NCBI GenBank assembly: GCA_000002445.1
Contig: CP000071.1
Coordinates: 1,888,001 to 1,952,000, forward strand
From: Trypanosoma brucei
Lineage: Eukaryota
DNA: 64,000 nt
Reading direction: 5' to 3'
Shown: piece after piece, positions 6,218-7,327 of the stretch
Numbering within the stretch: position 1 is the stretch's first letter
Layout of the letters: each line of letters opens with the position of its first letter
Position numbers and translations under genes: made by a program
Notes under the pieces: generated by a model
Databases searched by the model: none
What the model was told of the DNA's origin: nothing
What the model saw: only the letters and a program-made list of their open reading frames with translations

Positions 6218-6907
6218 ATGGTAAACAAACATGGCTTTGTGCGAGCTGATGCCCTCCGGAGGATCAAGTACGGCGATGCAACACCTGCAGTGGACATCCC
6301 CCCGGAGCCCCCTCCAGTGGTGGCGATCGTTCCTCTACCATCGAGCACACGAGTCCCGATGAGACCGCAGGTGCTTCATTGTACCCTCTGTGCCTCCAAA
6401 TTCGCAGTGCCAGGCCGACTATTACACCACCTTCAAATAATACATGGCATAGGCAGCAGTAGTTGCCGCGTGAAAAGGGGGCGGGAGAACGAGGACTCAG
6501 TGCAAGGAGATGGTAGCGCCCCAGCAGCGCCAGCCCCTCAGGAAACACGGAAGCTGCCGTTTCAATGTGACCTATGCGAGGCGAGCTTCGGTACACGCTC
6601 TTCCCTGTCACTACACAAGAAATTCAAACATAAGAGCATAGTGACGGAGGACGGTACCGTAATGGTAGTGCAATTCCCTCGTAAGCGTCCCCGTGAGGGA
6701 AACGTTGACGTCCCGGGGAAAGGCGAGGTGCAGTGTGGTGTGTGCCAAAAAGTGCTCAGTTGCAGGGACTCCCTCATCCGACACTGTAAGGCTTTCCACA
6801 AAGGTGAGGGAGTCGAGCTTAAATGCAGCAAAAGCACAAAATTGTGTGCCACTGATTCCCCGCATACAAACACATCCATGTTGGTGTGCCCGACATGCGG
6901 AAGGTAG
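6218..6907 (+). CDS. C2H2 zinc-finger protein, N-terminal 229 codons ending at an in-frame TAG that sits inside the fourth finger
   Basis: ATG at 6218. Three canonical C-x2-C-x12-H-x4-H fingers (for example FQCDLCEASFGTRSSLSLHKKFKH and QCGVCQKVLSCRDSLIRHCKAFH). The fourth finger reads CPTCGR-TAG-CASKTSLTLHQKKMH. Confidence 0.6.
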   Translation: MVNKHGFVRADALRRIKYGDATPAVDIPPEPPPVVAIVPLPSSTRVPMRPQVLHCTLCASKFAVPGRLLHHLQIIHGIGSSSCRVKRGRENEDSVQGDGSAPAAPAPQETRKLPFQCDLCEASFGTRSSLSLHKKFKHKSIVTEDGTVMVVQFPRKRPREGNVDVPGKGEVQCGVCQKVLSCRDSLIRHCKAFHKGEGVELKCSKSTKLCATDSPHTNTSMLVCPTCGR

Positions 6908-6909
6908 TG

Positions 6910-7327
6910 TGCTAGCAAAACCAGCCTCACCCTACATCAAAAGAAGATGCACGGTATGAAGGTAGAGCGCGCTGTTACCAGCCAACGCGGCGACTGCGAA
7001 GAAACGTCGCTGCACTTGATGAGCTGTCCCGGTTTGAAGGAGTTACGTGTCAGGTTTGCGGTAGAAGGTGTGTGTGTGCAGGATATATGCTTCTCCAAAA
7101 GGCTGGCGCAATTTCTCATTGCGGTTGGACGGAGCCGGCCACAGGTGAAGTCCTCCCCCAATGTATCAGTCATACAACCCACTCTCCCTTCTGCAACTTT
7201 CCTCCTTATTGCCGAGTGTGGAGCTAGCAGGAAAAGCACAGGACGCAGGAATAGTCCAGACACCCTCAGAGACAGAGGGGGTATGCTGTCAACAAGCAAC
7301 ATAAACAGAAAGAGGGGGAGAGAATAA
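6910..7327 (+). pseudogene. same-frame continuation of the zinc-finger ORF past the TAG; the gene is either a pseudogene, a sequence error, or read through
   Basis: The same frame stays open for another 139 codons and completes the fourth finger (..CASKTSLTLHQKKMHG..). If the TAG is an error, the full gene would be 6218..7327. Confidence 0.4.

What the first reader, a model, noticed from the sequence alone, without database searches (positions are those of the whole stretch)
6889..6960. In-frame TAG inside a canonical C2H2 zinc finger of an otherwise intact zinc-finger gene
Reading frame 6218..7327 encodes four C-x2-C-x12-H-x4-H fingers. The fourth is CPTCGR-[TAG]-CASKTSLTLHQKKMH, and the stop lands on finger position 3. 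Downstream the same frame stays open for another 139 codons and completes the finger. Either this is a sequencing or assembly error, or a very recent nonsense allele (pseudogene in the making), or a site of stop-codon readthrough. A single-nucleotide change from AAG, CAG, TCG or TAC would restore a typical residue.
Basis: seen in the sequence. Interest (0 to 1): 0.55.

Follow-up and report, generated by a model that had tools for sequence, protein, structure and literature searches.

The report
Dead ingi retrotransposon fragment, not gene
The "zinc-finger gene with an in-frame stop" is the broken-off tail end of a well-known Trypanosoma brucei jumping gene (the ingi retrotransposon), and the TAG is one ordinary decay mutation in a piece of DNA that was already non-functional.

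Summary
The TAG is real, but it lies at 6905-6907, not 6907-6909. It sits in the fourth C-x2-C-x12-H-x4-H finger of frame 6218..7327.

The frame is not a zinc-finger gene. The window is Trypanosoma brucei. Window 6194-7456 is 94-96% identical to the 3' part of Tbingi, the 5.25-kb non-LTR retrotransposon. Frame 6194-7327 aligns without gaps to residues 1280-1656 of an intact 1656-aa ingi polyprotein (endonuclease, RT, RNase H, C2H2 fingers) and ends on the same last residue.

The "start" ATG at 6218 is a methionine inside a fifth finger that is cut in half at 6194. The window has no endonuclease, RT, RNase H or 5' signature.

All five other copies examined read CAG (Gln) at this codon. These are two positional orthologues and three paralogues. 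So TAG is a private C-to-T change, or less likely a base-call error.

The orthologues carry different lesions of their own: 1-bp deletions in T. b. gambiense and T. b. equiperdum. TAG also terminates conserved genes nearby, so readthrough is not supported.

The relic lies beside a tRNA cluster in a convergent strand-switch region, a typical retroelement site. This is ordinary and already known.

One side observation may interest specialists: a sharp identity mosaic and excess divergence between orthologues suggest ectopic gene conversion.

The parts
6194..7456 (+). Fragment of a Tbingi (ingi4-subclade) non-LTR retrotransposon. It corresponds to about nt 3846-5109 of the 5.25-kb element: the C-terminal coding region plus ~130 nt of 3' UTR.
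   Evidence: It is 94.4-95.8% identical to five T. brucei ingi copies. Homology begins exactly at 6194 and the high-identity part ends at 7456. The reference full-length copy L011 has a 4,971-bp ORF and spans ~5.25 kb, as published for ingi (PMC3447711).
6194..7327 (+). Remnant reading frame equal to codons 1280-1656 plus the natural stop of the ingi polyprotein. It has no start of its own.
   Evidence: Gapless BLASTP alignment to P0049 residues 1280-1656, 342/377 identical, ending at the same last residue.
6194..6232 (+). C-terminal half of a fifth (upstream) C2H2 finger, CRSSAATH-MVNK-H, truncated at the breakpoint. The apparent start ATG at 6218 lies inside it.
   Evidence: Intact copies read CTECDATYQCRSSAVTHMVNKH. 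The window sequence upstream of 6194 is unrelated and has in-frame stops at 6179-6181 and 6191-6193.
6380..6445 (+). C2H2 finger 1 (CTLCASKFAVPGRLLHHLQIIH)
6566..6631 (+). C2H2 finger 2 (CDLCEASFGTRSSLSLHKKFKH)
   Evidence: (zf-C2H2_4 best stretch).
6734..6799 (+). C2H2 finger 3 (CGVCQKVLSCRDSLIRHCKAFH)
6887..6952 (+). C2H2 finger 4 (CPTCGR*CASKTSLTLHQKKMH), which carries the stop
   Evidence: Intact copies read CPTCGRQCASKTGLTLHQKKMH.
6905..6907 (+). The TAG codon. It is CAG (Gln) in every other copy examined, so this is a private C-to-T change at 6905.
   Evidence: Four-way and six-way alignments (Q238* listed as a window-private substitution). Proteins P0043, P0044 and P0049 have Q here.
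6995..7048 (+). Terminal Cys/His motif CEETSLHLMSCPGLKELR, which follows the fingers in ingi-clade ORFs
   Evidence: The same motif sits in the same position in distant ingi-clade proteins: P0013 (CEESVEHLLFHCPRFAALR) and P0015 (CLETPHHILCECVALTNLR). tblastn of P0013 880-1005 hits window 6731-7117.
7325..7327 (+). Natural TAA stop of the ingi ORF
   Evidence: P0049 and P0044 end at the aligned residue.
7457..7597 (+). Strongly diverged (about 64% identical) counterpart of the last ~135 bp of ingi, ending in a decayed A-rich tail
   Evidence: Collinear blastn match to L011 6612-6745, E = 6e-8. Observed score 42.5 bits against a maximum of 21.1 in 200 shuffles. Shared by all three positional orthologues.

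Best explanation
Window 6194-7456 is a non-functional fragment of the Trypanosoma brucei ingi (Tbingi) non-LTR retrotransposon. A diverged tail extends it to about 7597.

It preserves only the C-terminal part of the element's single polyprotein ORF: half of one C2H2 finger, four complete fingers, the terminal Cys/His motif and the natural stop. In the related L1Tc element this C2H2 region acts as a nucleic-acid chaperone during retrotransposition.

The fragment has no start codon, no 5' promoter signature, and no endonuclease, reverse-transcriptase or RNase H domain. It therefore cannot make the protein or transpose.

The TAG at 6905-6907 is a single C-to-T substitution of the family's CAG (Gln) codon. 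It is one of the random lesions that each copy accumulates and has no functional consequence.

Shown: what the fragment is, its truncation, CAG in every other copy examined, and independent lesions in the orthologues.
Inferred: that the fragment is untranslated, and that the T at 6905 is a real mutation rather than a base-call error.
For: - Organism: the neighbouring SpoU methylase ORF is an exact match to T. brucei TREU927 and T. equiperdum proteins.
- Homologues: the only protein hit for the finger frame is a 'Tbingi protein' of T. theileri.
- Family: the gambiense copy continues upstream into RNase H and RT. Its relatives are T. brucei-group 'reverse transcriptase' and 'RNase H/C2H2-type zinc finger' proteins and 'Tbingi protein' entries of T. 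grayi. They include a 1656-aa full-length member with Exo_endo_phos_2, RVT_1, RNase_H and zf-C2H2.
- Alignment: window frame 6194-7327 aligns without gaps to residues 1280-1656 of that protein at 91% identity, ending at the same residue.
- Boundaries: DNA identity to five ingi copies is 94.4-95.8% and starts exactly at 6194.
- Missing parts: no RT/RNase H/endonuclease similarity anywhere else in the window (tblastn) and no 5' signature.
- The codon: CAG in gambiense, equiperdum and three paralogues.
- Independent lesions: gambiense has 1-bp deletions near 6396 and 6534; the equiperdum orthologue has a 1-bp deletion near 6298; paralogue L010 has CAG>TAG near 6731 and a 1-bp deletion near 7200.
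- Rate: the fragment diverges faster between subspecies (4.2-5.0%) than unique non-coding flanks do (1.7%).
- TAG terminates conserved genes in the window.
- Location: a convergent strand-switch region next to tRNA genes, the most TE-rich compartment in T. brucei (PMC2323293).
- Literature: ingi is 5.25 kb with one 4,971-bp ORF (PMC3447711). C-terminal CX2CX12HX3-5H fingers are described for the sister element L1Tc, where they have chaperone activity (PMC5814959).
Against: - Apart from the TAG, the window copy has no frameshift or other stop in 377 codons, whereas both orthologues do.
- Substitutions private to single copies show an excess of synonymous changes: pooled pN/pS about 0.42, p = 8e-5; window copy alone 9 synonymous vs 10 non-synonymous, p = 0.03 against an unweighted Nei-Gojobori expectation. 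Taken at face value this could suggest constraint.
- I attribute that excess to variation inherited from, or copied by gene conversion from, active master elements that are under selection, and to transition bias. This was not demonstrated.
- The fragment lacks a recognisable target-site duplication, and its true 3' end is only 64% identical to ingi. Its origin is therefore not a simple 5'-truncated insertion.
- No read-level or transcript/ribosome data could be examined.
Confidence: 0.93

Rival explanations
1. The T at 6905 is a sequencing or consensus error, and the true base is C (CAG). The feature would still be a dead ingi fragment, just without this particular stop.
For: All five other copies have C at this position. 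The site lies in a multi-copy repeat where assemblies are error-prone: the T. equiperdum OVI contig L013 breaks inside the fragment at window 7408, and gambiense has a 100-N gap next to it.
Against: The window copy has 21 other private single-base differences spread along the fragment, so one more private change is expected. C-to-T is the commonest kind of real mutation. Other copies carry comparable real-looking lesions.
Confidence: 0.1
2. A cellular or domesticated C2H2 zinc-finger gene derived from ingi that has just acquired a nonsense allele. The 229-aa ORF 6218-6907, or the full 369-aa product in CAG alleles, would be a functional free-standing nucleic-acid-binding protein.
For: The frame is open apart from the TAG. 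There is an excess of synonymous over non-synonymous private changes. The homologous C2-L1Tc domain is active as an isolated protein in vitro (PMC5814959).
Against: The ATG at 6218 is an internal residue of a truncated finger. Both positional orthologues that keep CAG have frameshifting 1-bp deletions in the same frame. Divergence exceeds that of neutral flanks. The exact 229-aa and 126-aa ORF products are absent from the protein and gene collections searched. The locus sits beyond a tRNA cluster in a convergent strand-switch region.
Confidence: 0.03
3. Programmed stop-codon readthrough or recoding at the TAG yields a full-length four-finger protein.
For: Only that the downstream 139 codons remain open and complete the finger.
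Against: The open downstream frame is explained by 95% identity to an intact ORF. The TAG is not conserved in any other copy. TAG is the terminator of conserved genes in the window, for example the SDH flavoprotein at 14208-16037. From established knowledge, T. brucei uses the standard nuclear code. There is no functional upstream ORF to read through from.
Confidence: 0.01
4. [quoted passage not shown]
For: The 3' terminal ~140 bp (7457-7597) is only 64% identical to Tbingi. There is no TSD or 5' signature.
Against: The 1.26-kb core is 94-96% identical to potentially active full-length Tbingi, with one stop and no frameshift. Published DIREs are long, heavily mutated vestiges (PMC3820030, PMC2323293).
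Confidence: 0.05

Closest known systems
Tbingi (Trypanosoma brucei ingi, ingi4 subclade of the ingi/L1Tc clade of non-LTR retrotransposons)
   Same: 94-96% nucleotide identity over 1.26 kb. 91% amino-acid identity, gapless, to the last 377 residues of the 1656-aa polyprotein. Same finger pattern, same terminal Cys/His motif, same stop codon, and part of the same 3' UTR.
   Different: It is a fragment only. It lacks the 79-bp 5' signature, the 2A-like motif, and the endonuclease, RT and RNase H domains. It lacks the first half of the first finger. The canonical last 145 bp (within the RIME-derived 3' half) is replaced by a 64%-identical version. No clear poly(A) or TSD.
C2-L1Tc, the C-terminal C2H2 nucleic-acid-chaperone domain of T. 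cruzi L1Tc
   Same: Same position at the C-terminus of an ingi/L1Tc-clade polyprotein and same CX2CX12HX3-5H finger type (PMC5814959).
   Different: L1Tc is described with two fingers. Tbingi has five in intact copies, and the window keeps four and a half. No activity can be expected from the window copy, which has no translation start and carries a stop.
DIRE (degenerate ingi/L1Tc-related elements) of trypanosomatids
   Same: A non-functional ingi-related vestige. It lies in a strand-switch region, as is common for such elements (PMC2323293).
   Different: DIREs are about 5 kb and heavily mutated. This core is short and only about 5% from active copies. Only its 3' tail shows DIRE-like divergence.
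5'-truncated LINE insertions (dead on arrival copies) of other eukaryotes
   Same: Retains only the 3' portion of the element's ORF and UTR.
   Different: No TSD or intact poly(A). The abrupt switch from 95% to 64% identity and the differing 5' extent in gambiense suggest later rearrangement or gene conversion rather than simple truncated reverse transcription.

Membership tests
Tbingi non-LTR retrotransposon | High nucleotide identity to bona fide full-length ingi copies | tested here: met
   Window 6194-7456 is 94.4-95.8% identical to L010, L011 and L012 and to the orthologous copies.
Tbingi non-LTR retrotransposon | The reference family is a 5.25-kb element with a single 4,971-bp ORF encoding endonuclease, RT and RNase H (PMC3447711, PMC12278014) | tested here: met
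   L011 has an ORF at 1501-6471 (4,971 bp, 1656 aa) and the element spans about 1493-6746. Pfam finds Exo_endo_phos_2, RVT_1, RNase_H and zf-C2H2_4. This shows that the comparison copies are ingi.
Tbingi non-LTR retrotransposon | The copy itself encodes endonuclease, RT and RNase H (an autonomous element) | tested here: not met
   tblastn of ingi-clade proteins against the whole window hits only 6098-7117. The window copy is therefore a fragment, not a complete member.
Tbingi non-LTR retrotransposon | 79-bp 5' signature (Pr77 hallmark) at the 5' end (PMC2323293) | tested here: not met
   No match to the first 32 nt of the L011/L010 signature within 3 mismatches anywhere in the window. The signature is present in L010 and L011.
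Tbingi non-LTR retrotransposon | A-rich 3' tail and ~12-bp target-site duplication | tested here: inconclusive
   The diverged tail ends in a decayed A-rich stretch near 7585-7595. Inspecting the junction sequences by eye showed no direct repeat flanking 6194 and 7456/7597. No formal search was run.
Tbingi non-LTR retrotransposon | C-terminal CX2CX12HX3-5H fingers (shown for L1Tc, PMC5814959) | tested here: met
   Four complete fingers and one half finger, matching P0049 residue for residue in register.
[quoted passage not shown] | Long vestige with numerous stops and frameshifts and low identity to active elements (PMC3820030, PMC2323293) | tested here: not met
   The core has one stop, no frameshift and 95% identity. 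Only 7457-7597 is strongly diverged.
Cellular C2H2 zinc-finger protein gene | A complete ORF with its own start, kept intact in orthologues | tested here: not met
   The ATG at 6218 lies inside a truncated finger. The gambiense and equiperdum orthologues carry frameshifts.
Programmed stop-codon readthrough / recoding site | The stop codon and the downstream frame are conserved among orthologues, and there is a functional upstream ORF | tested here: not met
   The codon is CAG in all other copies. The frame is broken elsewhere in the orthologues. There is no genuine start. TAG is a normal terminator here.
Programmed stop-codon readthrough / recoding site | Ribosome footprints or peptides across the stop | not testable with these tools

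The most novel reading that the evidence does not exclude
The relic may be an old ingi-like insertion at a convergent strand-switch region whose internal 1.26 kb is repeatedly overwritten by homology-dependent ectopic gene conversion from younger Tbingi copies, independently in different T. brucei subspecies.

This would explain four things:
- the abrupt 95%/64%/0% identity mosaic;
- positional orthologues that are no closer to each other than to paralogues;
- 2.5-3x excess divergence relative to unique flanks;
- the surplus of synonymous differences.

The gambiense copy, which extends upstream into RT/RNase H, would be a longer conversion or recombination tract.
Probability: 0.4. Interest if true: 0.3.

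Novelty: already known. Interest (0 to 1): 0.08.

Why it matters
It matters mainly as a clean negative. A tempting "stop codon inside a zinc finger" turns out to be routine decay of a retrotransposon fragment. It should not be pursued as a recoding site or as a new zinc-finger gene.

For annotation, ORF 6218-6907 should be masked as ingi-derived.

The side observation could be a small, tractable example of concerted evolution or gene conversion among dispersed ingi copies in T. brucei. It would need population-scale long-read data to be worth more.

Tried and rejected
- I first read the stops just upstream of 6218 (TGA 6179-6181, TAG 6191-6193) as point-mutational decay of a fifth finger. I dropped this once the alignments showed that homology to ingi simply begins at 6194 and the upstream DNA is unrelated.
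- I tested whether window 4681-6193 is a decayed 5' part of the element (endonuclease, RT or RNase H). tblastn and word-7 blastn found nothing.
- I looked for an independent assembly of the same allele to check base 6905:
  - exact-protein look-ups of the SpoU ORF, the 126-aa ORF and the 236-aa ORF found nothing;
  - the 224-aa amastin-like protein retrieved a T. equiperdum OVI contig that stops at window 7408, short of the site;
  - Logan contigs for the SpoU gene were too short.
- I considered a simple 5'-truncated retrotransposition. This is not favoured because the canonical 3' end, poly(A) and TSD are missing.
- pN/pS on private substitutions was computed. I judged it uninformative about selection on this locus, because differences between copies can predate insertion or be imported by conversion.
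- Bringaud et al. 2009 (PMC2756862) could not be retrieved.
- Structure prediction, fold search and the representative-protein search were not used. Sequence identity to a known family made them unnecessary.

Full report
**1. The observation**

The sequence is as described, with one coordinate slip.
- Frame 6218..7327 is 370 codons with a single internal stop.
- It encodes four C-x2-C-x12-H-x4-H fingers at 6380-6445, 6566-6631, 6734-6799 and 6887-6952.
- The fourth reads CPTCGR*CASKTSLTLHQKKMH. 139 sense codons follow before TAA at 7325-7327.
- Pfam recognises zf-C2H2_4 and zf-C2H2.
- The stop is TAG at 6905-6907, not 6907-6909. One search shows g6904 t6905 a6906 g6907, and one search lists the ORF as 6218..6907 including the stop.

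**2. Organism and setting**

- The neighbouring ORF 2102-3223 is an exact match to the SpoU-type methylase of Trypanosoma brucei TREU927 and T. equiperdum.
- Five tRNA genes lie at 3988-4674.
- Long ORFs are on the + strand up to 3223 and on the - strand from about 10.7 kb onward. The tRNA cluster and the finding therefore lie in a convergent strand-switch region.
- In T. brucei such regions have the highest density of retroposons (PMC2323293).

**3. What the frame is**

- The only database homologue of the conceptual protein was a 'Tbingi protein' fragment from T. theileri (32% identity, E = 6e-21).
- In that alignment the supposed start MVNKHGF falls inside a finger, C-TE-C-GSQYSCRNTAVL-H-MVNK-H.
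- I fetched the same locus from T. b. gambiense DAL972 (L001). There the frame continues upstream through an intact fifth finger into RNase H and reverse-transcriptase domains.
- A search with that ORF returned T. brucei-group 'reverse transcriptase' and 'RNase H/C2H2-type zinc finger containing' proteins, 'Tbingi protein' entries from T. grayi, and RT/RNase H proteins from T. congolense and T. vivax.
- The 90%-identity cluster includes P0049, 1656 aa. Its gene in T. b. equiperdum (L011) is 4,971 bp within an element of about 5.25 kb. It carries the 5' signature, a DVEENPGP 2A-like motif, Exo_endo_phos_2, RVT_1, RNase_H and C2H2 fingers.
- These are exactly the published dimensions of ingi: 5.25 kb with one 4,971-bp ORF (PMC3447711).
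- The window frame 6194-7327 aligns without a gap to P0049 residues 1280-1656 (342/377 identical) and stops at the same residue.
- The Cys/His motif after the fingers (CEETSLHLMSCPGLKELR, 6995-7048) sits in the same place in distant ingi-clade proteins.
- C-terminal CX2CX12HX3-5H fingers are a described feature of the sister element L1Tc, where they form a nucleic-acid chaperone (PMC5814959).

**4. It is only a fragment**

- DNA similarity to ingi copies (94.4-95.8%) begins exactly at 6194 and the high-identity part ends at 7456.
- Nothing else in the 64-kb window resembles ingi endonuclease, RT or RNase H.
- The 5' signature is absent.
- Upstream of 6194 the sequence is unrelated and contains in-frame stops.
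- The ATG at 6218 is therefore an internal methionine of a half-deleted finger, not a start codon.

**5. The TAG**

- The gambiense orthologue, the equiperdum orthologue (L009) and three paralogues (L010, L011, L012) all have CAG (Gln) at this codon. So do proteins P0043, P0044 and P0049.
- The TAG is thus a private C-to-T change, one of 22 single-base differences unique to the window copy.
- The other copies carry different lesions:
  - gambiense: 1-bp deletions near 6396 and 6534;
  - equiperdum orthologue: a 1-bp deletion near 6298 and a 6-bp insertion near 7072;
  - L010: CAG>TAG near 6731 and a 1-bp deletion near 7200.
- Independent disabling lesions in each lineage are the signature of unconstrained decay.
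- TAG also terminates conserved genes in the window, such as the SDH flavoprotein at 14208-16037. Nothing suggests recoding.

**6. Caveats**

- Private substitutions pooled over the six copies are enriched for synonymous changes. pN/pS is about 0.42 (p = 8e-5). For the window alone it is 9 synonymous vs 10 non-synonymous (p = 0.03).
- This does not show selection on the fragment, for three reasons:
  - differences between retroelement copies largely arise in active master lineages, which are under selection;
  - such differences can be imported by gene conversion;
  - the expectation used ignores transition bias.
- I could not obtain reads or an independent assembly covering 6905, so a base-call error remains possible (about 10%). 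That would not alter what the feature is.

**7. An unexplained detail**

- Identity to Tbingi is about 95% across 6194-7456, then drops abruptly.
- 7457-7597 aligns collinearly with the last ~135 bp of ingi at only 64%, ending in a decayed A-rich tail (E = 6e-8; 42.5 bits against a shuffle maximum of 21.1).
- I saw no target-site duplication.
- The three positional orthologues are no closer to each other (95.0-95.8%) than to paralogues (94.4-97.1%).
- They differ 2.5-3 times more within the fragment (4.2% and 5.0%) than in unique non-coding flanks (1.7%; p = 8e-7 and 3e-9).
- Only 8 sites group the window with equiperdum, while gambiense groups with paralogue L012.
- At this locus gambiense also has RT/RNase H sequence after a 100-N gap, where the window and equiperdum have 1.5 kb of unrelated DNA.
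- The simplest reading is an old ingi-like insertion partly overwritten by ectopic gene conversion from younger copies. Assembly chimeras in repeats are an alternative I cannot exclude.

**8. Verdict**

The finding is a truncated, inactive Tbingi fragment in a typical retroelement location. The TAG is a trivial private nonsense substitution, or less likely an error, in DNA that was already non-coding. It is not a zinc-finger gene, not a pseudogene in the making and not a readthrough site. The element family, its C-terminal fingers and the existence of truncated or degenerate copies are all established. Novelty: already known. Interest: low.

Noticed in passing
window 6194-7597; L001 14291-15700; L009 13485-14900: There is a sharp identity mosaic in the ingi relic: 95% to modern Tbingi up to 7456, then 64% over the last ~140 bp. 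Positional orthologues diverge 4.2-5.0% inside the fragment against 1.7% in unique flanks, and are no closer to each other than to paralogues. This suggests ectopic gene conversion, or repeat-assembly artefacts.
   Followed up: partly
L001 12311-14290 versus window 4408-6193: At the orthologous locus, T. b. gambiense DAL972 has a 100-N gap followed by about 1.9 kb of ingi RT/RNase H continuous with the finger region. The window and T. b. equiperdum instead have 1.5 kb of unrelated unique DNA. This is either a real structural polymorphism or an assembly chimera.
   Followed up: partly
window 3988-4674: The tRNA cluster is Ile(AAT)+, Leu(TAA)-, Gln(CTG)-, Gln(CTG)+, Ile(AAT)+. It contains a perfect 127-nt inverted duplication (4234-4360 / 4448-4574) and duplicated tRNA-Ile genes. 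T. b. equiperdum L009 lacks window 4070-4599 and has a single tRNA-Ile.
   Followed up: partly
window 3223-10759: This is a convergent strand-switch region: + strand genes end at 3223 and - strand genes begin with an amastin-like ORF at 10759-11433 (Pfam Amastin, E = 3e-6). It holds the tRNAs and the ingi relic.
   Followed up: partly
window 53150-62764 (- strand): There are four tandem units of about 2.63-2.70 kb. Each encodes a 547-615-aa protein beginning MSSVTTGSS(F/S)YAAVLLVLLLTVTQC, which looks like a signal peptide. Parts are 100% identical between units. One copy scanned against Pfam gave no match.
   Followed up: partly
window 32001-36000: This stretch is very AT-rich (28-29% GC), with (TA)n and A-rich simple repeats and no long ORF, between - strand genes.
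   Followed up: no
window 46721-51367 (- strand): A 1548-aa ORF with DEAD, Helicase_C, RecQ_Zn_bind and HRDC domains, i.e. a RecQ-family helicase.
   Followed up: no
L010 8001-10904 and flanks (T. b. equiperdum CM010675.1): A nearly full-length ingi copy lies about 4 kb downstream of a VSG gene. It has a degenerate 2A-like motif (DVEENPRP), several frameshifts in the endonuclease region, and its own CAG>TAG nonsense mutation in the third finger.
   Followed up: partly
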